From contig CAVQMU010000002.1 of the NCBI GenBank assembly GCA_963713695.1, positions 564,041 through 628,040 on the forward strand: a stretch of 64,000 bases of DNA. Reading direction: 5' to 3'. Both the position numbers and the translations under genes were made by a program. This DNA is from an uncultured Alphaproteobacteria bacterium (GTDB taxonomy: Bacteria > Pseudomonadota > Alphaproteobacteria > Rhizobiales > Beijerinckiaceae). Below are positions 3,320 through 64,000 of the stretch, in pieces (positions within the stretch are counted from its first letter, which is position 1; each line of letters starts with the position of its first letter). Below the pieces are notes generated by a model. The model saw nothing but the letters and a program-made list of their open reading frames with translations, had not been told where the DNA came from and searched no databases.

Positions 3320-4177
3320 TTGCAAATGAACCTCGTTGAAATGGCTATGGCCGATCTCGCCGGCGCCGAGACTTTTCCGCTCGACGCCATCATGACCCTG
3401 CGCCAGAAATGGAGCGAGGCTCGCCCGGCTCTGATGGCGCGACTGGCTGCCTGCGTTTCCGGCGCCGATCGCTCGCCGGAGAACGCCGAGACGGTTTTTT
3501 TCGCCCTGCACCTGCTGGCGGAAAAGCGCGAAACCGAGGCTTTCGCGCCGCTGGTCTCGCTTTCGCTGGAAGGCGATGCGCTTTACGAGCTGATCGGCGA
3601 CGCCACCACCGAAACCCTGCCGCAGATTTTCATCAGCCTCTACGACGGCGATTTGCAAAAGCTGAAAGCGCTGGTCGAGTCGCCGCAGGCCGATCCATGG
3701 GCGCGCGTCGCGGCGCTCGAATGCCTTTCGTGGCTGGCGGCAGGCGGCGACATCCCGATGGAGGAGGCGCGCACATATCTCGGCCAGAGTTTCGAAACCC
3801 TGCAGCCGCGCGAGGCTGATCCAATCTGGTTTGGCTGGCAGAATTGCGTGGCGCTGCTCGGTTTTTCGGACCTCGAGCCGCAGGTGGTCCGCGCCTTCCG
3901 CCAGGGGCTGGTGGACAAGGAGGTTCTCGCCTTCGAGGACTTCAAGGCCGACCTGATCGCCAATCGCGGCGCGACGGACCGCCGCGCCCTGATGGAGGAG
4001 CGCGGGCTGAAACCCATTGACGATGCGCTGGAGGCGCTGGCGGCTTTCGATGGCGAGGAGGAAGAGGCCGAACCTGAAACGCCCGCGGCAAACCCCAACC
4101 GCGCCATCGGCCGCAACGATCCCTGTCCGTGTGGGAGCGGCAAGAAGTACAAGAAATGCTGTCTGGCGGCGGAGTGA
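3320..4177 (+). CDS. DUF1186/SEC-C-motif protein (YecA-like)
   Basis: C-terminal metal-binding SEC-C motif [15 protein letters not shown] with an acidic linker and a helical N-terminal domain. Confidence 0.75.
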
Positions 4178-4500
4178 GGGCTGCAGGTGAGCGTCCGAGT
4201 CGCGATCTGTATTATTTGCATGGATTTCCCGAAACAGTCCAGATAGTGTCGCCGAAATGAACGTTTCGAATGGTGCAACCATGCGTTTTGATCAATTTCT
4301 ATCCAAGAAATCAAAGAATAGAATCAATCGTCTTGTCGCAATTCCTCTTAAATCTGCCATTATAATATTCAAAGCCGTCCATGACGTTTTGATTAATCGA
4401 AACAACACGAAGGTGTCGTTCCAAAGGTTCAGCAACGGACGACAAAACGTCTTTATCTTGATCGCGTTGGTCATGAGCGGAAGGGTCGGATGCGCTGTCG

Positions 4501-5355
4501 GTGACGCTTATCGCGTTTACCAATGGCTGCCGTTCCGGATCTTTCTTGATCGGGTGCGAGTCGAGTCGGCGGCCGCAACCGGAAGAAATCCTGATTGTCA
4601 ATTACGATCAAAAGGCGGACGCAACATCTGGAAAACAGCGTGTTCTGCGGATATCAAATCTTTATTATACTGCGGAAAACAGCGAAAAGAGGCTGTTTTC
4701 TCCTTATTTTGCGCATCCTCAATTCTATCGTCGGCGGCTGCATGAGACCGTTGGGCGGATGAGGGATAAAAACAGGAACATAAGGATATTTTTCGCGGGA
4801 ACGAGAAGCAATGTATATTCGCGTTATTTCAAGTTCAATATGCTCAGCAGGGATAAGATAATCGACCGATTGCAAGCAAGATATGCGTCAACACTCAGCG
4901 CGGAGTCTTCGACCTTGGACAAGGCGCCATTCGTGATGGCCATGACCGAAGACACTCGCGACACCGTATCGAAGCACAAGCTCTCGATGGATTCGTATCT
5001 CGACGCCATGTCGCGTTCTGATTTTTTTATATGTCCGCCGGGGTTGCTGGTGCCCCACTCGCATAATATCGCGGAAGCGATGTCTGTCGGCACGATCCCG
5101 ATTACCAACTATCACGATTATATGCGCCCGAAGCTGACAGGCGGCCAGGACTGTCTCTCGTTCAATTCTCTGGAGGAGCTTGATGAGGCGGTCGACCGCG
5201 CGCTAGCGATGACTTCGGAAGAAGTCGAGCGTCTCCGCAAGAACGTGATTTCCTATTATAAAAAATACATGGATCCTGTAGCGTTCGGAGAAAAAATCAG
5301 GTCGTCCTCCAAGCTTGTCGAGGAAATAGTCGTCAACGACGAGTCTGGACTCTGA
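4501..5355 (+). CDS. exostosin/GT47-like glycosyltransferase (AT-rich, probably horizontally acquired)
   Basis: C-terminal motif SDFFICPPGLLVPHSHNIAEAMSVGTIPI resembles the exostosin GT47 signature (S.FCL.P.G…R..EA…GCIPV). The region 4200-5400 is conspicuously AT-rich against the GC-rich background. The start is uncertain. Confidence 0.6.
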   Translation: MTLIAFTNGCRSGSFLIGCESSRRPQPEEILIVNYDQKADATSGKQRVLRISNLYYTAENSEKRLFSPYFAHPQFYRRRLHETVGRMRDKNRNIRIFFAGTRSNVYSRYFKFNMLSRDKIIDRLQARYASTLSAESSTLDKAPFVMAMTEDTRDTVSKHKLSMDSYLDAMSRSDFFICPPGLLVPHSHNIAEAMSVGTIPITNYHDYMRPKLTGGQDCLSFNSLEELDEAVDRALAMTSEEVERLRKNVISYYKKYMDPVAFGEKIRSSSKLVEEIVVNDESGL

Positions 5356-22778: not shown

Positions 22779-22839
22779 TATCTGCTGGCGCCCGAAGGCA
22801 AAGGCCCCTAAATTGCGGTTGCGGCGCTGCGGGGTGCGT

Positions 22840-23110
22840 GAGGACATTTCCCCGGGGCCTTACGATCCCCTAGGGAGCTGTCCCTGTCTTGGTCCGTGGA
22901 CCTTGGCACATGGCGCCCACCTACTCTGTAGGTACCCGGGATCACGTCCCACGGCTTTTGTGGCCCGCACCCCCTCTCAGTTTCCCTTCTCCCCTTGCGG
23001 GAGAAGGTGGTCCGAAGGACCGGATGAGGGGACCTCGCGGCGCGTCCCCCTCATCCGTCTCGCCGCTGCGCGTCGATCCACCTTCTCCCGCGAGGGGAGA
23101 AGGGTTGCGC
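22840..23110. repeat. REP/MITE-like palindromic intergenic element (nested inverted repeats)
   Basis: CCTTCTCCCCTTGCGGGAGAAGGTGG … CCACCTTCTCCCGCGAGGGGAGAAGG and GGATGAGGGGAC … GTCCCCCTCATCC form nested palindromes. Such elements give spurious ORFs of the type …SPLAGEGGPKDRMRGP…, as in the listed ORFs 22889..23266 and the 5' part of 22813..23742. Confidence 0.5.
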
Positions 23111-52473: not shown

Positions 52474-55400
52474 ATGGATATCGAGGCGTGGCTAAGGGGT
52501 TTGGGCCTTGGCCAGTATGTCGCGACGTTTCGCGATTTTGCGGTTGACGCCGACATATTGCCGGACTTGAGCGACGCCGATCTCGAAAAGCTTGGTCTTC
52601 CGCTCGGCCACCGCAAACGCCTGCTCAAAGCGATCGCCGGCCTCGACGTGGCAAGCGCGGCGCCCGCCTCGACCGTCTCGATGTCGACGACTGGGGCCGC
52701 CGCCGACGCCGAGCGCCGGAATATCGCCGTGCTGTTTTGCGATCTCGTCGGTTCGACCGGCGTCGCCGCGCGTCTCGATGCCGAGGAATGGCGCGACATA
52801 GAGAACGCCTATCTGGATGCGGCGAGCAAGGCGGTGACCGATTTCGGCGGGCGGGTCGCCAAGAAACTCGGCGACGGTTTGATGGCGCTGTTCGGCTATC
52901 CGACGGCGCAGGAGAATGACGCCGAGCGCGCGGCGCGCGCCGCGTTGGCGATTCAGCGCGATCTCGCCAAACTGAATGCGGCCAATGCGGATGCGGGCAG
53001 GCCCCGGCTAGCAGTGCGCATCGGCATTGCCTCGGGCCTTGTGGTGGTCGACGCCGCGGGTGAGATATTTGGCGATGCGCCAAATATTGCAGCGCGCGTG
53101 CAAGCGGTGGCCGAGCCAGGATCTGTTCTGACGACAGCCGCCATGCAGTGCCAATTGGCAGGCCTGTTTGTCGTGGAGGACCTTGGCGCGCACGAACTCA
53201 AAGGCGTCGCCGGCCCGATGGCGCTCTATCGGCTGGTGCGCCAAAGCGGTGCGGGACGGCGGCTTGCGGCGCGGGCGTTGACGCCTATGGTCGGGCGCGA
53301 GGACGAGATGGCCGCGCTCGCCCGACGCTGGGCGCTCGCGCGACGCGGCGAAGGGCAATTGCTGCTCATTGTCGGGGAGCCCGGTCTCGGCAAATCGCGC
53401 CTGTTGGAGGAGTTTCGCCGCACGCTGAGCGGAACGCCCCACACGTGGGTTGAATGGAACTGCTCGCAACTTTTGCAAAACACAGCGCTGCATCCAGTCG
53501 TCGAATGGGGACGCCAGCGTTTTAGCGCCGACGATTCTCCCGAGCGAAGGCTTGCCGATCTTGAGGCGACGCTGACGCTGCTCAATCTCGATCCCTCCGA
53601 GCATCTGCCGCTGCTCGCGCCCCTCGTCGACATTCCCTTGCCGTCGGAACGGGCGCTGGAGGGGTTGTCGCCTGCCGAATTCCGGCGCAAACAGCTCGGC
53701 GCGCTGATGGCTTGGGTGATGGCGGGAGCGCGGGCGCAGCCGGTCGTTCTCGCCTGCGAGGACCTGCACTGGTCGGATCCGACCACGCTTGAGCTCTTGC
53801 GCGGTCTTGCCGAACGCGGCGGCGATGCCCCGCTGCTCATCCTCGCCACGGCACGGCCGGAGTTCCGGTCGTCGTGGAGCATCCGCGCGCATCATGGCGC
53901 GCTGGGGTTGGCCCCGCTTGACGCGGAAGAAGTCAAACGAATGGTCGGGCAAATCGCCGCCCGCCATGCATTGTCGCGTCAAACCATCGACGGCGTGGCC
54001 GCGCGCGCCGGAGGCGTGCCGCTGTTTGTCGAGGAGGTGACGCGGCTGCTGCTGGAGCGCCATGACACGGGCGACATACAGGCGATACCGCCGACCTTGC
54101 AGCAATCCCTGGCGGCGCGGCTCGACCGGTTGGGGCCGGCGCGCGAGATTGCGCAAGTCGCCGCGGTGATCGGGCGCGCGTTTTCTTACGCGCTGCTGCG
54201 GGCGGTGGCGTGCGCTGGAGATGCTGAGCTCTGCGAGGGTTTGGAGCGCCTGACGGAGGCGGGCCTCATCCACGTCCATGGCCAGCCGCCGGACGCGGAT
54301 TATCGCTTCAAACATGCGCTGATCCGCGATGCGGCCTATGAAGGTCTTCTGAAAAGCCGTCGTCAGGCGCTGCACGCTCGCATCGCCGAGAACTTGCGCG
54401 ACCGTTTTCCCGAGCGCGCCGAAGCCGAACCGGAGTTCCTCGCCGGCCACTTCACGCAGGGGGGGCTTTTGGAGCCTGCGATCGACGCCTGGACCAAGGC
54501 AGGCGAACAAGCCGCTCGGCGCTCGGCAATCACCGAGGCGGTCGCACATTTCGAAAAGGCGATCAATATCGCCGACGCCCTGCCTGATCGCCGTGAGCGA
54601 AGGCTTGACCGGCTGCGCTTGCAGGTCGCTTACGGCAACGTGCTCATTCCAGCGCGTGGACATGGCGCGGTGGAGACGACCGCGGCGTTTGTCCGAGCGA
54701 GGGAGCTCATCACTGAGAATACGGAATTGTCGGAGACGTTCTCGATCTATTATGGGTTGTGGACTGGCCATTTTGTTCGCGGCGAACTTGAGCCGATGAA
54801 GACGACTGCGGCAGAACTCCTGCTCGCAACCGAGGCAGGGAGCGAATCCGCTGCCGCCGGCATCGCACATCGAATGTCTGGCGTCACATACTGGTCCGCC
54901 GGGGAATTTTCACTCGCCAGAACCTTCCTCGATCGCGCTCTCACCATGATCGGGCCAGAGATTGACAAGGTGTCGATGCTTGCCTTCGGACAAGAGCCGG
55001 GCGTCAGCGTCCTGGCTTATCTTTCACTGACCAATTGGCCGCTTGGAAACGTCGCGCGTGCTATCGCTCGCGCTGACGAAGCTGTCGAACGCGCAACAGT
55101 TAGCGGACATGTTGCGACGATCGCTTACTCAGTTTGGCATCGGCTCCTTTTGGACCTGATGCAGCGGCGCGACGATCTCGCAATTGACGGTGCGAAGGCT
55201 TTAATCGAGATCAGCGAAAAGTACGAACTGCGACAGTGGCGAATAGCAGGCATCTTCTTTGATGGGTGGACACGATGGCGCCGGGACTCCCAAGTGGACG
55301 GCATCGAAGCGATGAAACGCGGTGTGGCCCTTGTCCGCGAGCAATCCGCTCACAATACCTCGCCTATCTATGCAATCCTTCACGCGGAGGCGCTTTGCGA

Positions 55401-55764
55401 GCATGGTCAAATTGCGCTTGCGCTTGCTGCAATTGATGAGACTGCCGCCGAAATCGAGCACACGGGCTGTCGTTGGATTGAGGCTGTGCTGTATCGCGTG
55501 CGCGGCGAAATTTTGCTGAAAATGGGCGCTCCCCACGTCTCCGCTGCTGAAGCCGCATTGGCGCGCGCCCTGCACATCGCACACGCGCAACAAGCGAGAA
55601 GCTTTGAGCTGTGCGCGGCGATGAGTCTGGCGAGGCTTTATCGAGATCGGGGCCAAAGCGTTCAGGCGCGCGACATCTTGGCGCCTGTCTACGGTTGGTT
55701 CACGGAGGGGTTCGACACGCCCGATTTGACGCAGGCCAAGGCTCTGCTCGACCAGTTGGCTTGA
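52474..55764 (+). CDS. multidomain signalling protein: SAM domain, class III adenylate/guanylate cyclase, AAA/NB-ARC-like ATPase, TPR repeats
   Basis: SAM: …ILPDLSDADLEKLGLPLGHRKRLLKAI… Cyclase: …RRNIAVLFCDLVGST…GDGLMALFG…IGIASGLVVV…PNIAARVQ… P-loop GEPGLGKSRLLEE. C-terminal TPR-like helical repeats. Confidence 0.9.
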   Translation: MDIEAWLRGLGLGQYVATFRDFAVDADILPDLSDADLEKLGLPLGHRKRLLKAIAGLDVASAAPASTVSMSTTGAAADAERRNIAVLFCDLVGSTGVAARLDAEEWRDIENAYLDAASKAVTDFGGRVAKKLGDGLMALFGYPTAQENDAERAARAALAIQRDLAKLNAANADAGRPRLAVRIGIASGLVVVDAAGEIFGDAPNIAARVQAVAEPGSVLTTAAMQCQLAGLFVVEDLGAHELKGVAGPMALYRLVRQSGAGRRLAARALTPMVGREDEMAALARRWALARRGEGQLLLIVGEPGLGKSRLLEEFRRTLSGTPHTWVEWNCSQLLQNTALHPVVEWGRQRFSADDSPERRLADLEATLTLLNLDPSEHLPLLAPLVDIPLPSERALEGLSPAEFRRKQLGALMAWVMAGARAQPVVLACEDLHWSDPTTLELLRGLAERGGDAPLLILATARPEFRSSWSIRAHHGALGLAPLDAEEVKRMVGQIAARHALSRQTIDGVAARAGGVPLFVEEVTRLLLERHDTGDIQAIPPTLQQSLAARLDRLGPAREIAQVAAVIGRAFSYALLRAVACAGDAELCEGLERLTEAGLIHVHGQPPDADYRFKHALIRDAAYEGLLKSRRQALHARIAENLRDRFPERAEAEPEFLAGHFTQGGLLEPAIDAWTKAGEQAARRSAITEAVAHFEKAINIADALPDRRERRLDRLRLQVAYGNVLIPARGHGAVETTAAFVRARELITENTELSETFSIYYGLWTGHFVRGELEPMKTTAAELLLATEAGSESAAAGIAHRMSGVTYWSAGEFSLARTFLDRALTMIGPEIDKVSMLAFGQEPGVSVLAYLSLTNWPLGNVARAIARADEAVERATVSGHVATIAYSVWHRLLLDLMQRRDDLAIDGAKALIEISEKYELRQWRIAGIFFDGWTRWRRDSQVDGIEAMKRGVALVREQSAHNTSPIYAILHAEALCEHGQIALALAAIDETAAEIEHTGCRWIEAVLYRVRGEILLKMGAPHVSAAEAALARALHIAHAQQARSFELCAAMSLARLYRDRGQSVQARDILAPVYGWFTEGFDTPDLTQAKALLDQLA

Positions 55765-55882
55765 TCCCGAGCCTGTTGCGGACGCGCATGTCGCGCGTAG
55801 TCAGAAAGCCGACTTATGGACTGAACGACCGCACCGTTCGGGACCGGCCGAAATTTGTTGGCGAACACTGTTTATGCTCAGG

Positions 55883-56434
55883 TCACTTCGCCGCAACGCC
55901 GCCGATCTGGTAATTGCCGACCTTTGTGCCCATCCACTGAGATATCGCTTCTGTGGAGACCGCGGGACTGCTGCGGATGTCGAATTCTCCGGTTATGCTG
56001 GCATATTTTCCCGTACCGCCCTTCCAGGAGCCTTTATAAAGAACTCCGCCGCCCATCGGCTGGGGCGAAGCCGAAGCAAAACTTTCGTAGACGGTATCAC
56101 CGTCCTTGTCGGTGTACGTGCAATTGCCGTGTCCTTCGATCATTTTAGCAGCTTTGTCGATCGTTAATATGATCGCACAGCGGCCCGGGGCGCGATGAAG
56201 CAAGCCGGTTTCAGAAACGTTGAACGCCATCATAAATGGGGTGATGGCGACGACATCCTTGGTGTCGTTGAGAGCGACCGGCTTGGCGGCAGGAACGCTT
56301 GTGGCGGAATAAATAATCTTGAATTGACCTGTTTGGGGTAGATCTTCGGCGATAGCCGAGGTGTTGGCGGCTGCAGCTTCGAAAAGGAGCGCGACAACTG
56401 TAGCGAGTTGGTTGAAAGTGCAGAATTTGTGCAT
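55883..56434 (-). CDS. secreted hypothetical protein (~180 aa), lower GC
   Basis: Signal peptide MHKFCTFNQLATVVALLFEAAAA; no recognised domain. Confidence 0.55.
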   Translation of the reverse strand: MHKFCTFNQLATVVALLFEAAAANTSAIAEDLPQTGQFKIIYSATSVPAAKPVALNDTKDVVAITPFMMAFNVSETGLLHRAPGRCAIILTIDKAAKMIEGHGNCTYTDKDGDTVYESFASASPQPMGGGVLYKGSWKGGTGKYASITGEFDIRSSPAVSTEAISQWMGTKVGNYQIGGVAAK

Positions 56435-57024
56435 CGTGAACATTTTACCCTCCTATTGAACACTTGTCGCTCTCTCTGAGAACGGCTCCGACAAATTTCT
56501 AAGGTCGATGCATGCGCGTCCACTGTGCCGAACGTCGGCGGCGACATTACTACAACAAAGATGTTCTTCGCCCTGTGATAGGCGTCACTGGACTCTCTAT
56601 GTTTGACAGAATGTGTGCGTCGCCAACAAATAGAGCGCTGAAACAGCATCGCGTATATTATTCGCGATTTAACCGCCAAGGACGGCATGCGCCGCTTCTT
56701 GCCAAAACAGGCTTCGTCGGTTATTTCTCAAGCATTCAACGAGGGGGTTGGCGGGCGGAAGGCGCAGAAGCCATGTCTGGCGCGTGCACAACCGAACGAT
56801 CAGTCGGCAGATCACAACCGATTATTGAGAACACGATTATTCTCGTCCATATTCTACGGCGCGTCTTCCTTGAATTTCGGCAGCGGGTGACGCGACGATG
56901 CGAGTGTGGTTTCCTCACAGTCGATTTCGGCGCCGCGGCGCCATCTAAACTCATGCTTGGTTACAGCCGGCGTTACCGATTTGACGTTTTGAATGTTCGC
57001 ATTCATCGCTATCGGAGATAGTCA

Positions 57025-57735
57025 ATGCGCGCGCCCATACCTCAGGCGTCAAGCCCAGATCACCGCATTCTAGACCAATGCTTGTTCCTTCGCGCCCTCG
57101 ACGAAGTCTCTCGCAAAGAGTTATTGGCGCACGCCATTCGCAGAAAATTTCAGCCCGGCGATGTCATCTTTCGGTTTGGCTCGCCCGGCCATTGCATGAT
57201 GATCGTCGCGCAGGGAACTGTCCGAATTAGTCTCACTGAGTCTGGCGGGCGGTCGATTATTCTCACAGACATTCAATGCGGCGGCATACTGGGAGAAGTC
57301 GCAATATTTGACGGCAAAGAACGCTCCGCTGATGCAACCGCCCAGACGTGTTGCGAGCTTCTGGTTTTCGAACGCCGCGACGTGCTTGCATTTCTTGAAC
57401 GCCATCCTGCGGCATGCCTGAGAATTCTGGAGCTTTTGTGCACACGATTACGTGGCGCCAATCAACGCGTGTTGGACGTCGGCTTTCTGGATATTTCGGA
57501 GCGTCTGGCGAAAATACTTTTGTTGCGATCGAGTGAACGTCGCGCGACGAAAAGCGCTTCGCCGGCGAAGATCGCGGATAGCCAAAATGATTTGGCCGCA
57601 ATGGTCGGCTGCAGCCGCGAAGCAGTGAATCGTTGCCTTCGTCAAATGCAAAGGCGCGGAATTTTGGCGCTTCAAGATGGGTGGATTATAATTTTACAAC
57701 CTGAGGCGCTCCAGTCCATCATCGATATCGCCTGA
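57025..57735 (+). CDS. Crp/Fnr-family cyclic-nucleotide-binding transcriptional regulator
   Basis: cNMP-binding beta-roll (…GDVIFRFGSPGHCMMIVAQGTVRIS…GEVAIFDGKERSADA…) and C-terminal HTH (…QNDLAAMVGCSREAVNRCLRQMQRRG…). Confidence 0.85.
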   Translation: MRAPIPQASSPDHRILDQCLFLRALDEVSRKELLAHAIRRKFQPGDVIFRFGSPGHCMMIVAQGTVRISLTESGGRSIILTDIQCGGILGEVAIFDGKERSADATAQTCCELLVFERRDVLAFLERHPAACLRILELLCTRLRGANQRVLDVGFLDISERLAKILLLRSSERRATKSASPAKIADSQNDLAAMVGCSREAVNRCLRQMQRRGILALQDGWIIILQPEALQSIIDIA

Positions 57736-58080
57736 TCGCGCCATCGGCCGTTGAGCCGATGTAAGTGCTTTCTTGAAAACAATTATCAAAATCTGGACTG
57801 ATGAGGTGGAGACCCCGGGTTTGCCGGAGGCCGTTTTTGTTCAATAACGCCGCCCTGTCAGATGCTTCAACACGTGTGAGAAGGCATCCACCAGAACGCT
57901 GATTTTGCATCGGTGCATCAATGCGTAACGCCAAAACGTGAGAGGGCGTTGTTGAACGCGTATTCGCAGCTGTGACGGGCATCACAAGTAATTTTCCAAA
58001 GCTAGGGCAGCATTGCATCTGTCGGCGTCGGGGCTCCATGAACAGGGGGCCGGATCGCCGGCCAGAGAAGGAGACCGGAC

Positions 58081-58302
58081 ATGAAGAAAATTGTCTCGAC
58101 CTTGATCGTCTCTTTGGCGGCGCTTGGCGCTCTGGCCGCCGCGCCCGCCAAATCGGACCCGCTATACAACGTCCACGCGTGGACCGCAGAGTCGCCTCTG
58201 CCCAGCGGCGAAAAAGTATACGGATTCGACGTTCAGAAGGGCTGCTATAACGGCGTCACGGCAATCCAGGGGCAGTTGAGCCGCGCCCATATCTGCTATT
58301 GA
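58081..58302 (+). CDS. small secreted hypothetical protein (73 aa)
   Basis: Signal peptide MKKIVSTLIVSLAALGALAAAPA, GGAGA-like SD upstream, two Cys. Confidence 0.5.
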   Translation: MKKIVSTLIVSLAALGALAAAPAKSDPLYNVHAWTAESPLPSGEKVYGFDVQKGCYNGVTAIQGQLSRAHICY

Positions 58303-58620
58303 CGCGTTCGCGAAGAATTGAGCGCTTTTCGACAGCGATAAACGATGCTCCAGCTTCGCCATAGGAAAAACTGAACGCCGGCTCGGCTGGAAACCGGATC
58401 GGCTGTCCCTCATCGTCGTCCAGCAGGAGACGCGGCCGGTCGACGCCGCCGGCCGCGTCGTGATTGCGGAAGTCAGCAAGACGACGAACGTCAGCGCCGG
58501 CCGGCTCGCCTGGATGGATGGCGCGGATGTCGTGTTGAGCCAGGTCGTTGAACTCGACAAGGGCAACGGGACAGCACATGGCGCGGGCGCACGAGTCGAG
58601 GACGGCGCGTCGATGCCGTT

Positions 58621-58660
58621 TCTTGGCATCCAGCAAGTCGACTTCTTGGCATCCAGCAAG
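58621..58660. repeat. perfect 20-bp tandem duplication CTTGGCATCCAGCAAGTCGA x2
   Basis: Seen directly in a low-coding-quality region upstream of the integrase. Confidence 0.6.
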
Positions 58661-58993
58661 TCGACGAGGGCTCGTCAGCTTTATGAGCTACGATCTCGGC
58701 TTCGTCGATCTGGAGCAGAAAACTTTGCAGACCCTCGACAACCCGTTCGGCGCGAGGTTGTCACCTATGTCTTAGGTACGTTCTGTCAGCGATGTGTCCG
58801 GTATGGACACACAAGATAGATGGCGGAGAGGGAGTCCGCGAAACCATAGTCCACGGCGTGTTTCTGGCGTTCTCTAAGTCGAGCCAAAATCAGGCATTGT
58901 AGAGCTTTTGTGTCTTCCGTTGTCCACGAATATCCACTACAATCCACGTCAGAAAGTGGGGCCGTAAGTGGGGCCACTAGATCAGGTGAACGG

Positions 58994-59296
58994 ATGACAA
59001 GGGCGCGCAACAAACTCTCGGCTCGCAAGGTCGCAACCCTCAGCGACACAGGACGCCATGGTGACGGCGGAGGGTTGTATCTGGTGATTGACACGACAGG
59101 GGAGACGTATCGGAGGCGTTGGCTCTACCTGTTCACCTTGAACGGCAAGCGGCGTGAGATGGGCCTTGGCGGCTTCCCTGAGGTTTCTCTGGCGGACGCT
59201 CGCAAGGCGAGGGACGTGGCTGAACAGAGCGTCAGGGGCGGGGTTGATCCCATTGACGCGAGAGAGGCTTCCAAGCGAGCCTCAGAGGGTAAGCAG
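58994..59296 (+). pseudogene. phage/P4-type tyrosine integrase, N-terminal Arm-DNA-binding (DUF4102) fragment, truncated by an IS insertion
   Basis: MTRARNKLSARKVATLSDTGRHGDGGGLYLVIDTTGETYRRRWLYLFTLNGKRREMGLGGFPEVSLADARKARDVAEQSVRGGVDPIDAREASKRASEGKQ| then runs into the IS terminal repeat. Confidence 0.8.
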
Positions 59297-60698
59297 ATCA
59301 CGTCCGTCAAGCTGGTGGAAATTTTGGGGCGGTCACCTTGCCTCCTCAGGCTGCGATTTTCGGGATTGGCGTGGGTTGTTCGGCGAGTCCGGTCATGGTC
59401 TCCAGGCTCATGTAGCGATGCTGCAATTGCCACTCGTCGTTTTGTTCGAGCAGGATCGCGCCAACGAGGCGCCTGATTGACGGCTCGTTGGGAAAGATGC
59501 CGACGACATCGGCGCGGCGCTTGACCTCCTTGTTCAATCTCTCGATCGGGTTGGTCGAATGCAGTTTTGGCCAATGGGCGCGGGGGAAGGCCATGAAGGC
59601 GAGCACGTCGGCCTCGGCGTCGTCCATCAAAGCAGCGAGTTTGCCAAAACGCTTGCGCAACTGGTCGGCGACGTGGCGCCATGTCTGCGAGGCGGCGGCT
59701 TGATTGTCCTGAGCGAAAACCGAGCGGATCGCAGCCGAGACCATGGAATGCTCCGCCTTCGACACGTGGGCGAGCGCGTTGCGCATGAAGTGGACGCGAC
59801 AGCGCTGCCAGCTTGCCTTGAATACCTGCGAGATCGCCGCTTTCAGGCCTTCGTGGGCATCGGAAATCACCAGTTGCACGCCCTTGAGCCCGCGCTTTTC
59901 CAGCGAACGCAGGAAATCGAGCCAGAACACAGCAGCTTCCGAGGGGCCCAGGCCCAGGCCCAAAATCTCGCGCTTGCCTTCGGTGTTGACGGCCGTAGCG
60001 ATTATTGCCGCGACCGAAACGATGCGGCCGTTCTCGCGCACTTTCAGATAGGTGGCGTCGAGCCACAGATAGGGCCAGTCGCCTTCGATCCGCCGGTCGA
60101 GGAAGGAGTTCACCCGTTCGTCGATGTCCTGGCAGAGTTTGGACACCTGGCTTTTCGAAATGCCTGACATGCCCATCGCCTGAACGAGGTCATCGACCTT
60201 GCGCGTCGAAACGCCTTGAATCCAGGCCTCCTGCACGACGGCGACCAACGCCCGCTCGGCGGTCTTGCGCGGCTCCAGGAAGGCCGGAAAATAGCTGCCC
60301 TGGCGCAGCTTCGGGATTTTGAGATCGAGCGTGCCGAGCCGCGTCTCCAGATTGCGCTCGCGAAAACCGTTGCGCTGGGTCGTGCGCGCCTCGTTGCGCT
60401 CGTAGCGGCCCGCGCCAACGAGGTTTTCGACGTCATACTCCATCAGTCGCTGCAAAACCGCTTCGGCGAGTTCCTTCAAAAGGTCGCCGCCGCCGCGCTC
60501 GCGAATGGAATTGAAAAATGCCATTGTGTCATCGGTCATCGTGTTGTCTCCGGTAGGGGTCAAGTCTCGCAACTCGACTATAAACCGAAGAGGACGCGGT
60601 GACCGCCCCCAGCCGACGGGCCGGCCGGCTCCGCAATACGCGGAGCTCCGCCCGCCGGCCCTTCTCAGAAAATTTCCACCACCTCAGTGGACGCTACC
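59297..60698 (-). mobile_element. IS256-family insertion sequence (~1.4 kb) with imperfect ~26-bp terminal inverted repeats, flanked by a 9-bp target-site duplication GGTAAGCAG
   Basis: Left end ACGTCCGTCAAGCTGGTGGAAATTTT vs reverse complement of right end GCGTCCACTGAGGTGGTGGAAATTTT. Direct repeat GGTAAGCAG at 59288-59296 and 60699-60707. Removing the element fuses the integrase halves in frame (…ASEGKQ|TFGQVADAL…). Confidence 0.85.
59346..60572 (-). CDS. IS256-family (Mutator-like) transposase
   Basis: …WPYLWLDATYLKVRENGRIVSVAAIIATAVNTEGKREILGLGLGPSEAAVFWLDFLRSLEKRGL…VISDAHEGLKAAI…HFMRNALAHV… DDE motif context typical of IS256. Confidence 0.9.
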   Translation of the reverse strand: MRDLTPTGDNTMTDDTMAFFNSIRERGGGDLLKELAEAVLQRLMEYDVENLVGAGRYERNEARTTQRNGFRERNLETRLGTLDLKIPKLRQGSYFPAFLEPRKTAERALVAVVQEAWIQGVSTRKVDDLVQAMGMSGISKSQVSKLCQDIDERVNSFLDRRIEGDWPYLWLDATYLKVRENGRIVSVAAIIATAVNTEGKREILGLGLGPSEAAVFWLDFLRSLEKRGLKGVQLVISDAHEGLKAAISQVFKASWQRCRVHFMRNALAHVSKAEHSMVSAAIRSVFAQDNQAAASQTWRHVADQLRKRFGKLAALMDDAEADVLAFMAFPRAHWPKLHSTNPIERLNKEVKRRADVVGIFPNEPSIRRLVGAILLEQNDEWQLQHRYMSLETMTGLAEQPTPIPKIAA

Positions 60699-61625
60699 GG
60701 TAAGCAGACGTTCGGGCAGGTCGCTGACGCCCTGGTAGAAGCCAAGCAGGCCGAATGGCGCAACGCGAAGCACAAGGCGCAATGGAAGATGACGCTGGAG
60801 GTCTACGCGGCGTCCCTTCGTTCGCGACCTGTTGACGAAATCGACACGGAAGCAGTGCTGAACGTCTTGCAACCGATTTGGCACGAAAAGCCGGAGACTG
60901 CTTCGCGGCTCAGAGGGCGGATTGAGAACGTCATTGACGCTGCAAGGGCGCGCGGATTCATCCCGCAGAATGAAGCCAACCCGGCGCGCTGGCGTGGCCA
61001 CTTGGACAAGCTGTTGGCGAAGCGCATGAAGCTGACGCGCGGTCATCATGCGGCGATGGCCTACGACGACGTTCCAGCCTTCATGAGTCGTCTGAAGGAG
61101 CGCGAGGCGATGGCGGCGCTTTGCCTTGAGTTCGTGATTTTGACAGCCTGCCGAAGTGACGAGGCGCTCAGCGCCAAATGGGCGGAGGTCGATCTTGATA
61201 AGAAGCTCTGGACGGTCCCGGCTGAGCGCATGAAGGCAGCTAGGGAACACCGCGTCCCCCTTGCGCCTCGTGCTGTCGAGATGTTGGAGAAGCTCGCGAA
61301 GAGCAAGACAAGCGAGTTCGTGTTTGCCGGCCATAAGGAAAACAGGCCGCTCTCAGGCATGGCAATGAACATGATGTTGCGCCGCCTGAAGGTGGACAAG
61401 GTGACGGTTCACGGGTTCCGCTCTTCGTTCCGCGACTGGGCAGGCAACGAGACACACTTCCCCCGCGAACTTGCTGAGGCGGCGCTGGCTCACGTCATAG
61501 GCGACAAGGCGGAACAGGCTTACAGGCGCTCGGATGCGCTGGAGAAGCGGCGCGCCTTAATGGAGGCATGGGCGAACCATTGTGAGGGGACGCAGGGCGG
61601 AAACGTGGTCCAGTTGAGGGCGTGA
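60699..61625 (+). pseudogene. tyrosine integrase C-terminal fragment (SAM-like domain plus catalytic domain), downstream of the IS insertion
   Basis: …TFGQVADALVEAKQAEWRNAKHKAQWKMTLEVYA… with catalytic residues R…H-x-x-R…Y (…VHGFRSSFRDWAGNETHFPRELAEAALAHV…AYRRSD). Confidence 0.8.
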
Positions 61626-61631
61626 CGGGGG

Positions 61632-62015
61632 TCAGAACTTGTGCGTCTTGATCTTGCAAGGCACAAACACGTAATTCAAAGAAGATGCCCCAAAATGAGC
61701 TATTTCTTCGCCAGAAACCGAGTCCCTGTTGAATGTGTAGGTTATGTTGTCGCCATCGTGCCACTTGATGATTGATGGCGTTGCGGAGTTGAGGTTGTAT
61801 GCATCGCCCTCAAGGAACGTAACTCTGTTGTTATCCAGATCGAAGGTGAATGTTACAGGTGCCTTCTCTTCAGGTTGTGATTGTACGGCCCGGCTTGGGT
61901 TGAAGGCAAATAGGGTACTCTTGCACGTAAGAGTTATTTCCTTAGCGAGCGCGCCTGAAGCCGATAGATTTGCTCCGACGCTCAGCGCCACCAAAAGTCC
62001 GACTCTCCGAAACAC
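61632..62015 (-). CDS. secreted hypothetical protein (127 aa), low-GC island cargo
   Basis: Signal peptide MFRRVGLLVALSVGANLSASGALA; GC content clearly below the flanking chromosome. Confidence 0.5.
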   Translation of the reverse strand: MFRRVGLLVALSVGANLSASGALAKEITLTCKSTLFAFNPSRAVQSQPEEKAPVTFTFDLDNNRVTFLEGDAYNLNSATPSIIKWHDGDNITYTFNRDSVSGEEIAHFGASSLNYVFVPCKIKTHKF

Positions 62016-62139
62016 CGCTTCCCCCTGTCCTCGATTGGATGGCCAAACGTAGGGCGTGAAGATTGACGGAAGCTTGCCGGACCTGAAGGGGAATAAGAAG
62101 GCTCATTCAATGGCTTGAGCCGGAAAAGGCCTCAATCTG

Positions 62140-62420
62140 CCCCGTTATGAGGAAGCGCCCGTGATGGAGCTGATTGGAAACGGGCGGACCTGAGGGCTTT
62201 TCATTACGATATAACAATGACTTGGTAGCCGAGAAGCATGGAATTTACGGACTTATGAGGAAGCCAACCAATTCCAGGCCGTTTGGATGCCTGAGGGGCC
62301 TCCCCAAAATTGGGGACACCCTCGGACTTCGAGGCGAATAGCCCTGCCAGTTCAGAAGCTTGCATGAAAAAAACCCGAAGTCTACGCACTTATGAGGGAA
62401 CGCGCCTCTCGTTGCGCCCC
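62140..62420. repeat. three degenerate ~60-bp direct repeats (core ACTTATGAGGAAGC…CCTGAGGG) spaced ~110-130 bp; iteron-like
   Basis: Copies begin near 62146, 62253 and 62386. They lie upstream of a small putative regulator and a RepA-like ATPase. Confidence 0.35.
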
Positions 62421-62511
62421 TGAAATACCCCCCCCCAAATTCGCCCCTTCCACCCAGCCCCCTCAGTGGGGCTTTTCTTGTTGTCAGTCTGTCATGAAAG
62501 GAAACACGACG

Positions 62512-62718
62512 ATGATGGTTACCATGAAATACCCAGAGCCGAGAGGCATCGAAGCGAACACCGAGTTCTATGGCTTCTACGTGAGGGCTACGGGAGAGAC
62601 CCGCCGCCTGTTGAGGGAAGCCCGTAGGAAGTTCGCAGAGCAACACGGCGCACCCCCAAGCAATTCGGTTCTGCTGAAGGAAATGGTCTGGCTCTACACG
62701 TCGCCTGAGCGTCCCTGA
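62512..62718 (+). CDS. small hypothetical protein (68 aa), possible RHH/regulatory protein of the integrated element
   Basis: MMVTMKYPEPRGIEANTEFYGFYVRATGETRRLLREARRKFAEQHGAPPSNSVLLKEMVWLYTSPERP; AGGAAA 7 nt upstream of the ATG. Confidence 0.45.
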   Translation: MMVTMKYPEPRGIEANTEFYGFYVRATGETRRLLREARRKFAEQHGAPPSNSVLLKEMVWLYTSPERP

Positions 62719-62735
62719 TTAACGACGGAATACAC

Positions 62736-64000
62736 ATGCAAACTGAAACCAAACCAATCTCCCCCGCACGGAAGAAGCGTGAGGCCCTCGCTGGGCAATA
62801 CGGGAGCTACGAGAACTACCTGAGCAAGCTGAGCCTTGTGGCGCGCTATGCCGACGAAGAGAAGGCCTTCAAGGCGAAGGTGGAGGCGCACCCGAAGATA
62901 ACCAAAGACACGATGAGCGAACTTCTGGACGGCATGGTGCCGTATTGGATGAACCCGTTCCTGCTCAGGTCGCTGAACCTCGCGTTGATCGGTTCCCCTG
63001 AGCTTTCCAACGAATGGAAGCAGGACAGCGGCAACGTGTCGGCGCGGTCCTTGAGGCTCGCGGGGGTCACCTATCAGGACTATTCGGACCTTGGATGGCC
63101 CCGTACTGCCGGTGCTGCGGTGCGTAAGGTCACGCCTGAGGAGCATGGCGAAATCTTGAGGAGGCTGAAGAGCGCGGGGCTGACGAAGCCGGGGGCTGAG
63201 GTTGCCACGGTCGGCAAGACGCTGGCTCAGATGATCGAAGAGGACCGCCCGGTTCCCGGATGGATCATTGAGGGCGTCCTGAGGTGGGGTGGAGCCGCGA
63301 TGGTCTATGGGCCTTCGGGCATCGGCAAGACGTGGCTGACACATACGCTCATGCTCTTGGCGGCGGCAGGCGAAGGCGCTGGCGTCTACAACGAACAGGT
63401 GGACCGCTGGACGCTCAAGGCCGGTGACCACAGGGGCGCAAAGGTTTGCCTGTTGGATGGAGAAATGATTACGGCGGACATCACAGCCCGCGCCAAGGTG
63501 CTTTGCGAGGCGCTGGGCTTGCGGATGACCGGAAGCGTCCAGGGGGTTGAGCCGATGGATTACGCTCAGCTTCGATTGGCGATGCTGGCCAGCGGCGACG
63601 ACTTAGCAGAGGTGGACGCCATCGTTCAGGGGCTTGCAAGCACCGATGCTGAGAAGTGCCTGAGGCTTGAGGGTTTTGGAGGCGGCGAGGGGCCTTGCGT
63701 CGATCTATCGCGTATCGTCGTTTACCCGAAGGCCGATCAGGACCACAGGGCGGAGTTTGTAGACCTCGCGGACGCCGCATGGAAACACAGGATCGTTGAG
63801 TTCTGCAAGGCGCAGGGGATCAAGGTTCTAATCCTCGATAACCTCGCGACCCTCAGCGAGAGCCTTGAGGATGAGAACTCAGCGGCAAACTGGAATCCGC
63901 TCAACTCGCTCGTTGTCGCGCTGAAGAAAGAGGGTGTCGCCACCATCGTAGTTCACCACGCCAACAAGGGAAACCAAGGCTACCGGGGATCATCCAATCT
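62736..64000 (+). CDS. AAA_25/RepA-like P-loop ATPase (phage/plasmid replication or primase-associated helicase domain); 3' end beyond the window
   Basis: Open frame from ATG 62736 to the window end; absent from the ORF track because it has no stop. Walker A MVYGPSGIGKTW; …KVLILDNLATLSE… and …ATIVVHHANKGNQGYRGSS typical of the RecA-like AAA_25 family. Confidence 0.7.
   Translation, partial: MQTETKPISPARKKREALAGQYGSYENYLSKLSLVARYADEEKAFKAKVEAHPKITKDTMSELLDGMVPYWMNPFLLRSLNLALIGSPELSNEWKQDSGNVSARSLRLAGVTYQDYSDLGWPRTAGAAVRKVTPEEHGEILRRLKSAGLTKPGAEVATVGKTLAQMIEEDRPVPGWIIEGVLRWGGAAMVYGPSGIGKTWLTHTLMLLAAAGEGAGVYNEQVDRWTLKAGDHRGAKVCLLDGEMITADITARAKVLCEALGLRMTGSVQGVEPMDYAQLRLAMLASGDDLAEVDAIVQGLASTDAEKCLRLEGFGGGEGPCVDLSRIVVYPKADQDHRAEFVDLADAAWKHRIVEFCKAQGIKVLILDNLATLSESLEDENSAANWNPLNSLVVALKKEGVATIVVHHANKGNQGYRGSSN

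What the first reader, a model, noticed from the sequence alone, without database searches (positions are those of the whole stretch)
58994..61625. Integrase of an integrative element inactivated by an IS256-family insertion with intact 9-bp TSD
The integrase reading frame is precisely restored by deleting 59297-60698. The target duplication GGTAAGCAG is identical at both ends and the terminal inverted repeats are clear. This points to a recent transposition that has probably immobilised the downstream low-GC element. The element's cargo (61632 onward) would then be 'locked in'.
Basis: seen in the sequence. Interest (0 to 1): 0.55.

Follow-up and report, generated by a model that had tools for sequence, protein, structure and literature searches.

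The report
Island integrase gene split by IS256-family element
A jumping gene of the IS256 family has landed in the integrase gene of a small element inserted at a serine tRNA site, which probably stops the element from cutting itself out; this is a clean, recent but ordinary event.

Summary
Window 58994-59296 and 60708-61625 join into one 406-aa tyrosine integrase with arm-binding, core-binding and catalytic domains. It aligns without a gap across the junction to intact homologues of 66-82% identity.

The interrupting DNA is a complete IS256-family element:
- It is 1403 bp, at 59296-60698.
- It has 30-bp imperfect terminal inverted repeats and an intact 397-aa transposase.
- By those ends the target duplication is 8 bp, GGTAAGCA. 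The ninth identical base is the IS's own terminal base.

I also found the element's boundary. ATGGCGGAGAGGGAG at 58820-58834 is a copy of a tRNA-Ser 3' end, 173 bp upstream of the integrase start. All ten relatives that have a downstream tRNA show the same layout. Two putative arm-type sites (AAGTGGGGCC) follow it. The tRNA end lies beyond base 64000.

The insertion falls in the linker after the arm-binding domain. The integrase shows no decay, so the event looks recent. Immobilisation is a reasonable inference, not shown. Low interest.

The parts
58820..58834 (-). att repeat at the element's left boundary. ATGGCGGAGAGGGAG is the reverse complement of a tRNA-Ser 3' end (CCA, acceptor stem and the start of the T stem).
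   Evidence: It is the only copy in the window. In 9 of 9 related loci with a minus-strand tRNA downstream of int, an exact 14-15-bp copy of that tRNA's 3' end lies about 155-190 bp upstream of int. L083 shows the same. About 34 of 40 loci have a TGGCGGAG..GTCCG-type motif in that upstream position.
58954..58975 (+). Two direct copies of AAGTGGGGCC with a 12-bp period. These are putative arm-type integrase-binding sites.
   Evidence: Both copies are exact, and they are the only exact copies in the window. Every related locus has a tandem repeat at the same place. The repeat sequence differs between loci but is identical or near-identical within each locus (alignment A2). Binding is inferred, not shown.
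58994..59296 (+). Integrase 5' fragment, codons 1-101 (arm-binding domain). The frame runs on into the IS and stops at 59476, giving a 160-aa product.
59288..59295 (.). Target-site duplication, left copy (GGTAAGCA). The base at 59296 is also identical but belongs to the IS.
59296..60698 (-). Complete IS256-family insertion sequence, 1403 bp.
   Evidence: The ends are defined by 10 independent related copies at 89-93% DNA identity. There is a single copy in the window.
59296..59325 (.). Terminal inverted repeat at the end downstream of the transposase gene.
   Evidence: 22 of 30 bases match the other end when aligned in register. The repeat finder pair I3.
59346..60539 (-). Transposase gene, 397 aa, intact, preceded by a GGAGA ribosome-binding site.
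   Evidence: PF00872 at 434 bits and NF033543 at 357 bits. The exact protein is in the public collection as P0121. Relatives of 397 aa cover it fully.
60669..60698 (.). Terminal inverted repeat at the end upstream of the transposase gene.
60699..60706 (.). Target-site duplication, right copy (GGTAAGCA).
60708..61625 (+). Integrase 3' fragment, codons 102-406 (core-binding and catalytic domains, with R250, K277, H336, R339, H363 and Y373 all present). The public annotation calls a 312-aa ORF from GTG 60687, which lies inside the IS.
61632..62015 (-). 127-aa hypothetical protein with a signal-peptide-like N-terminus. It is part of the element.
   Evidence: No family match. There is a weak homologue at the same position in L095. 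It is 100% identical in Logan contig L081.
62494..62718 (+). Small conserved element gene of about 70 aa. The start codon is uncertain (62494 to 62524).
   Evidence: It is 57-62% identical to small genes upstream of the AAA_25 gene in L094, L095 and L096. No Pfam or PHROG match.
62736..64000 (+). 5' part (421 of 562 codons) of an AAA_25 RecA/DnaB-like ATPase, probably the element's replication helicase. It runs off the window, and the gene should end near 64424.
   Evidence: PF13481 at 62 bits. PHROG matches to primase/helicase families. The full-length protein is P0241.

Best explanation
A small integrative element sits at a tRNA-Ser gene. Its left end is the 15-bp att copy at 58820-58834. 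Its right end, the tRNA itself, lies beyond base 64000. The element encodes:
- a P4-type tyrosine integrase;
- a small secreted protein;
- a conserved protein of about 70 aa;
- an AAA_25 helicase-like ATPase.

A 1403-bp IS256-family element transposed into integrase codon 101, in the linker between the arm-binding domain and the core-binding domain, and duplicated 8 bp of target.

The gene is now split in two. One product would be a 160-aa arm-domain polypeptide with an IS-encoded tail. The other is a promoterless catalytic fragment. In this class of integrase, one protomer must bridge arm sites and core sites to build the recombination complex. The element has therefore most likely lost its own excision and integration activity.

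What is shown: the structure, the family assignments, the att copy and the lack of decay. What is inferred: the loss of function and the recency.
For: - Frame restoration and all three integrase domains.
- Gap-free alignment over the junction to 11 intact homologues, including every catalytic residue.
- IS256-family transposase above the curated cut-offs.
- IS ends fixed by 10 independent copies.
- The flanking 9-mer occurs only at the two junctions in 64 kb.
- An att copy and tandem arm-type repeats at the same positions as in related loci. In those loci the matching tRNA-Ser or tRNA-Tyr lies 3-11 kb downstream.
- The same small-gene plus AAA_25 module sits in bounded elements elsewhere. L094 is a 7.3-kb element with 15-bp att repeats.
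- Only 2 private changes at otherwise invariant integrase columns.
- No promoter-like site facing out of the IS towards the 3' fragment.
Against: - The tRNA end of the element is outside the window, and the source contig could not be fetched. The element's completeness is therefore unverified.
- No intact allele above 82% identity was found, so the pre-insertion state is reconstructed, not observed.
- Loss of mobility is not testable in silico.
- The promoter scan covers only sigma-70 consensus promoters.
Confidence: 0.88

Rival explanations
1. The element is still mobile despite the insertion. Three routes are possible. A paralogous integrase elsewhere in the genome could act in trans on the intact att and arm sites. 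The two integrase fragments could complement each other. Or rare precise excision of the IS through its duplication could restore the gene.
For: - One att copy and the arm-type repeats are intact.
- The 3' fragment keeps a complete catalytic set and has an in-frame GTG start inside the IS. The public annotation calls this as a 312-aa protein.
- Reversible clean excision of IS256 from its insertion sites, independent of IS256 transposition, is documented (PMC11178275, citing Hennig and Ziebuhr 2008).
Against: - No second related integrase is present in the window.
- No promoter-like site or Shine-Dalgarno sequence precedes the GTG at 60687.
- From established knowledge of lambda Int, fragments lacking the arm domain cleave core sites but do not carry out arm-dependent recombination.
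- Precise excision of IS256 is rare.
Confidence: 0.12
2. The insertion is old and the element was already a decaying relic, so the IS did not immobilise anything.
For: - The other end of the element is unseen.
- The region left of the att copy is also somewhat lower in GC (0.56) and contains unexplained ORFs.
Against: - Both integrase halves are free of stops and frameshifts.
- All catalytic and invariant residues are kept, with only 2 private substitutions, tied lowest of 12 sequences.
- The duplication is perfect.
- The transposase is intact. A copy differing by one residue exists on another large contig from the same sources, NCBI and ENA.
- The AAA_25 gene is full length in the source record.
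Confidence: 0.06
3. The two integrase-like fragments come from different genes that the IS, or a rearrangement between IS copies, brought together.
For: None was found. Some related IS copies in metagenome contigs do lack matching duplications, so IS-mediated rearrangements or chimeric assemblies do occur in this IS lineage.
Against: - An identical 8/9-bp duplication abuts both IS ends and occurs nowhere else in the window.
- The joined protein has the same length (406 aa) as its closest homologue.
- It aligns without an indel at the junction, with four invariant columns around it.
- DNA alignment to L082 is continuous over 1304 bp at 77% identity.
Confidence: 0.01

Closest known systems
IS256 and the IS256 family of insertion sequences (DDE 'Mutator-type' transposases)
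   Same: - A single transposase ORF matching the IS256-family models.
- A length of 1.4 kb, imperfect terminal inverted repeats of about 30 bp, and an 8-bp (or 9-bp) target duplication.
- It inactivates a gene by insertion. For IS256 itself this is known to be reversible.
- From memory, the published IS256 end (GATAAAGTCCGT...) resembles the left end here (GATCACGTCCGT...). I did not check this against a source.
   Different: - This is a different, alphaproteobacterial lineage.
- The best plasmid-borne relatives are only about 75% identical in DNA.
- The closest named proteins are Rhodoblastus acidophilus IS256-family transposases at 86%.
- Closer relatives (92-97% protein identity) are known only from metagenomes.
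- I could not compare it with ISfinder.
P4/CP4-57-type tyrosine integrases of tRNA-associated genomic islands (Arm-DNA-bind_3 / DUF4102 N-terminus)
   Same: - The three-domain architecture and the full R-K-H-R-H-Y catalytic set.
- An att site that is a short copy of a tRNA 3' end.
- An integrase gene next to one att site.
   Different: - It scores 163 bits against NCBIfam PRK09692, whose cut-off is 434, so it is not in that curated subfamily.
- In this clade the integrase sits at the end far from the tRNA gene and reads towards it. The identity segment is only 14-15 bp.
- In two more distant relatives (L021, L028) the tRNA-Ser lies directly upstream of int instead.
Small integrative elements carrying int, an AAA_25 helicase-like ATPase and an HTH_17 (AlpA/excisionase-like) gene, for example loci L094 and L095 found here
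   Same: - The same module order: a small conserved gene, then an AAA_25 ATPase at 62-64% identity.
- L095 also has a homologue of the 127-aa protein.
- L094 is bounded by 15-bp tRNA-derived repeats and is 7.3 kb long.
   Different: - Their integrases are only 30-32% identical to this one and target tRNA-Cys or tRNA-Leu.
- The HTH_17 gene and the right end of the window's element are not visible.

Membership tests
IS256 family insertion sequence | Transposase matches the curated IS256-family model above its cut-off | tested here: met
   NF033543 scores 357.3 bits against a cut-off of 150. PF00872 scores 434 bits and covers 367 of 379 profile positions.
IS256 family insertion sequence | Length of about 1.2-1.5 kb with a single transposase ORF | tested here: met
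   1403 bp, with one 397-aa ORF. The other ORFs listed are overlapping alternative frames.
IS256 family insertion sequence | Imperfect terminal inverted repeats | tested here: met
   22 of 30 bases match in register 59296/60698. The same ends are conserved in 10 related copies.
IS256 family insertion sequence | Target-site duplication of 8-9 bp | tested here: met
   GGTAAGCA appears on both sides. A ninth identical base coincides with the IS terminal base. L091 shows the same 8+1 pattern.
IS256 family insertion sequence | Transposition activity (circular intermediate, copy-out/paste-in) | not testable with these tools
   Only indirect evidence is available. A copy differing by one residue (P0122) lies on another large contig, and there are many independent insertion contexts in metagenomes.
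Tyrosine integrase with arm-binding domain (P4 / lambda-like heterobivalent integrases) | Catalytic R-K-H-R-H-Y residues | tested here: met
   R250, K277, H336, R339, H363 and Y373 all fall in invariant columns of alignment A1.
Tyrosine integrase with arm-binding domain (P4 / lambda-like heterobivalent integrases) | N-terminal arm-type DNA-binding domain plus core-binding domain | tested here: met
   PF13356 covers residues 9-92 and PF22022 covers residues 103-199 of the restored protein.
Tyrosine integrase with arm-binding domain (P4 / lambda-like heterobivalent integrases) | Arm-type repeats near att | tested here: inconclusive
   Tandem AAGTGGGGCC repeats lie upstream of int, and the equivalent repeats co-vary between loci. 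Binding has not been shown, and the second arm is outside the window.
tRNA-integrated genomic island / integrative element | Direct repeats derived from the tRNA 3' end at both boundaries | tested here: inconclusive
   One copy lies at 58820-58834. There is no tRNA in the window, so the partner must lie beyond 64000. All ten relatives in which the tRNA is visible have both copies.
NCBIfam PRK09692 (CP4-57-type integrase domain model) | Score at or above the curated cut-off | tested here: not met
   162.7 bits against a cut-off of 434.

The most novel reading that the evidence does not exclude
The insertion may have turned a heterobivalent integrase into a two-piece system. One piece would be a free arm-binding polypeptide. 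The other would be a catalytic fragment translated from the GTG inside the IS end. Together they might still support recombination, or regulate it, or repress it.

Separately, the integrase clade seen here may be an undescribed family of small elements in Hyphomicrobiales. Its features are a 14-15-bp tRNA-Ser att site, an integrase at the tRNA-distal end, co-varying arm repeats, and an exchangeable module of a small conserved gene and an AAA_25 ATPase (HTH_17 in relatives).
Probability: 0.06. Interest if true: 0.4.

Novelty: new member of a known kind. Interest (0 to 1): 0.15.

Why it matters
The main value is for annotation:
- The public record calls a 312-aa 'protein' that actually starts inside the IS. 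It should be annotated as an IS-disrupted integrase pseudogene.
- The island boundary can now be placed at 58820.

The locus is a tidy example of one mobile element disabling another. It gives a defined system for testing whether the arm domain is needed in this integrase clade, by restoring the gene through deletion of 59296-60706. It does not open a new biological question.

Tried and rejected
- **tRNA and RNA scans.** ARAGORN found no tRNA or tmRNA in the window. Rfam found only 6S RNA at 22.8 kb. The full att partner is therefore not in the window.
- **Reaching the source contig (838 kb).** Exact-protein look-ups failed for P0002, the transposase, P0122 and P0241. The 127-aa protein led only to a 1.3-kb Logan contig.
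- **Genome-contig scan.** It returned 80 related integrase loci but not the source genome or a close intact allele.
- **Metagenome scans.** Two scans found nothing. One used a degenerate pattern across the uninterrupted junction and the other used the ATPase Walker-A peptide.
- **Plasmid megablast of the IS.** It gave only relatives of about 75% identity or less, with no information on the ends.
- **Promoter scan.** It found no outward-facing promoter at the IS end.
- **Cargo genes.** The element's genes have no homologues in the 80 integrase loci, so cargo and integrase are not co-inherited.
- **9-bp duplication with IS start at 59297.** I considered and rejected this. The terminal C (in transposase orientation) is present in all 10 related copies whatever the flank. 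However, the flanking base matches it in all three insertions where both flanks can be paired, which I cannot explain.

Full report
**Observation**

The 9-mer GGTAAGCAG occurs only twice in the 64-kb window, at 59288-59296 and 60699-60707. The ATG at 58994 opens a frame that reads ...KRASEGKQ up to 59296. The frame of 60699-61625 reads GKQTFGQVADA... to a stop at 61625.

Removing the insert plus one copy of the repeat gives a 406-aa ORF. That ORF has three Pfam domains, all above their cut-offs:
- Arm-DNA-bind_3, residues 9-92;
- Phage_int_M, residues 103-199;
- Phage_integrase, residues 220-377.

**One gene or two?**

A search of 5.8 billion proteins returned many intact integrases of 399-412 aa that cover 97-100% of the restored protein. 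The best is 82% identical and is also exactly 406 aa (P0001).

In an alignment with 11 of them there is no indel at the junction. K100, T102, F103 and G104 are invariant columns around it. The catalytic R250, K277, H336, R339, H363 and Y373 are all invariant and present. At DNA level the restored locus aligns continuously with L082, at 77% identity over 1304 bp.

**The insert**

The 397-aa ORF at 59346-60539 on the minus strand is an IS256-family transposase. It scores 357 bits against NF033543 (cut-off 150) and 434 bits against PF00872.

The terminal inverted repeats align in register only if the element starts at 59296, giving 22 of 30 matches. I fetched ten related copies, 89-93% identical in DNA, from metagenome contigs in different contexts. 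All begin GGTAGCGTCC and end GGACGTGATC, with unrelated DNA beyond.

The IS is therefore 59296-60698 (1403 bp), and the duplication is 8 bp (GGTAAGCA). The ninth identical base is the IS's own terminal base. The same 8+1 coincidence appears in L091 and in the L085/L089 pair. I note this but cannot explain it.

On copy number:
- There is one copy in the window.
- The exact transposase is recorded on one 838-kb contig.
- A copy differing by one residue (P0122) sits on a 557-kb contig from the same sources, NCBI and ENA. A 97% copy (P0123) sits on a 591-kb contig from those sources.
- These suggest, but do not prove, two or three copies in the genome.

**The element**

No tRNA is in the window. 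However, 173 bp upstream of the integrase ATG lies ATGGCGGAGAGGGAG (58820-58834). This is the reverse complement of a tRNA-Ser 3' end, and it is unique in the window.

Among related integrase loci from a genome scan, nine have a minus-strand tRNA 3-11 kb downstream of int. Seven are tRNA-Ser and two are tRNA-Tyr. In all nine, an exact 14-15-bp copy of that tRNA's 3' end lies about 155-190 bp upstream of int. L083, from Rhodoblastus sp. 17X3 and 75% identical, shows the same layout. About 34 of 40 loci carry a TGGCGGAG..GTCCG-type motif upstream of int, mostly 140-250 bp from the start.

So 58820 is the element's left boundary. The integrase sits at the tRNA-distal end, and the tRNA-Ser must lie beyond 64000.

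Immediately before the integrase start, every locus has a tandem direct repeat with an 11-12-bp period. Its sequence differs between loci but is identical or near-identical within each locus. In the window the repeat is AAGTGGGGCC at 58954 and 58966, the only exact copies in 64 kb. These are most simply arm-type binding sites. This is an inference.

**Content downstream of int**

- A 127-aa secreted-looking protein on the minus strand (61632-62015).
- A conserved gene of about 70 aa (about 62494-62718).
- An AAA_25 RecA/DnaB-like ATPase starting at 62736. Its full length in the public record is 562 aa.

The small gene plus AAA_25 module recurs at 57-64% identity in L094 and L095, followed there by an HTH_17 (AlpA-like) gene. 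Those loci have unrelated integrases (30-32% identity) that sit next to tRNA-Cys or tRNA-Leu. L094 is bounded by 15-bp repeats and is 7.3 kb long.

The window's element is thus a small modular integrative element with little obvious cargo. GC is clearly lower only for 61626-62735 (0.53, against 0.62 for the bulk).

**Mechanism and timing**

The IS sits after codon 101, in the linker between the arm-binding and core-binding domains. The 5' fragment would give 101 integrase residues plus 59 IS-encoded residues. The 3' fragment has no promoter-like site in front of it and no evident ribosome-binding site, although the public annotation calls a 312-aa ORF from a GTG inside the IS.

From established knowledge of lambda-type integrases, arm-core bridging by a single protomer is needed for recombination. 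Loss of self-mobility is therefore the most likely consequence, but this is inferred.

Recency is supported by four points:
- the duplication is perfect;
- the transposase is intact;
- neither integrase half has a stop or frameshift;
- the integrase has only two private substitutions at otherwise invariant columns, tied lowest of the 12 aligned sequences.

There are caveats. A paralogous integrase could act in trans. IS256 is also documented to excise cleanly at low frequency, independently of IS256 transposition.

**Comparison and verdict**

This is an IS256-family member by every sequence feature tested. The integrase is an arm-domain tyrosine integrase of the P4 type, but it falls below the PRK09692 cut-off.

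IS insertions into accessory genes, integrases included, are commonplace. I did not check a published example of an IS-split integrase (one search found none). The finding is correct, cleanly resolved and ordinary.

The added value is:
- the att boundary;
- the putative arm sites;
- the corrected IS ends;
- the observation that the public annotation mis-calls the 3' fragment as a protein.

Noticed in passing
window 22821-22969 (+): 6S/SsrS RNA gene, 54.5 bits against a gathering score of 46.4. It is the only Rfam family found in the window.
   Followed up: no
window 58620-58665: Perfect tandem duplication of a 23-bp unit (TTCTTGGCATCCAGCAAGTCGAC), 155 bp left of the att copy, in a region of uncharacterised ORFs.
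   Followed up: no
window 4001-5000: GC drops to 0.50 against about 0.62 for the surroundings, which may mark another foreign segment.
   Followed up: no
window 52474-55764 (+) and 57025-57735 (+): The chromosomal flank left of the element holds a 1096-aa protein with SAM, adenylate/guanylate cyclase and AAA_16 domains, and a Crp/Fnr-type regulator. GC for 55001-58820 is 0.56.
   Followed up: partly
window 60687-61625 (+): The public protein collection holds the 3' integrase fragment as a 312-aa protein (P0002) that starts at a GTG inside the IS end. The disrupted gene appears not to have been flagged as a pseudogene.
   Followed up: yes
loci L001-L083, upstream of each integrase (alignment A2): In this integrase clade a tandem repeat just before the int start co-varies from locus to locus. 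Examples are GTGGGGCC, TGTGGACC, TGTAAGAC and TTAGGGAC. The pattern is what one would expect if arm sites co-evolve with the arm-binding domain.
   Followed up: partly
L021 9711-9803 and L028 9703-9792: In two more distant relatives (50-54% identity) the tRNA-Ser lies on the same strand directly upstream of int. The att orientation relative to int is therefore flipped within the wider family.
   Followed up: no
L085/L089, L091/L093 and window 59287/59296: In all three insertions of this IS lineage where both flanks can be paired, the base before the 8-bp duplication equals the IS terminal base (C in transposase orientation). This makes 9 identical bases each time, which is unexplained.
   Followed up: partly
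L081 (Logan ERR11563597), equal to window 61088-62393: A 1306-bp contig from another public sequencing run is 100% identical to the integrase 3' end plus the 127-aa gene. It comes from either the same strain or the same element elsewhere, and it does not reach the IS site.
   Followed up: partly
window 60590-60664: A GC-rich hairpin and a 15-bp inverted repeat (GACGGGCCGGCCGGC / GCCCGCCGGCCCTTC) lie inside the IS, upstream of the transposase start. They may shield the transposase from read-through transcription.
   Followed up: no
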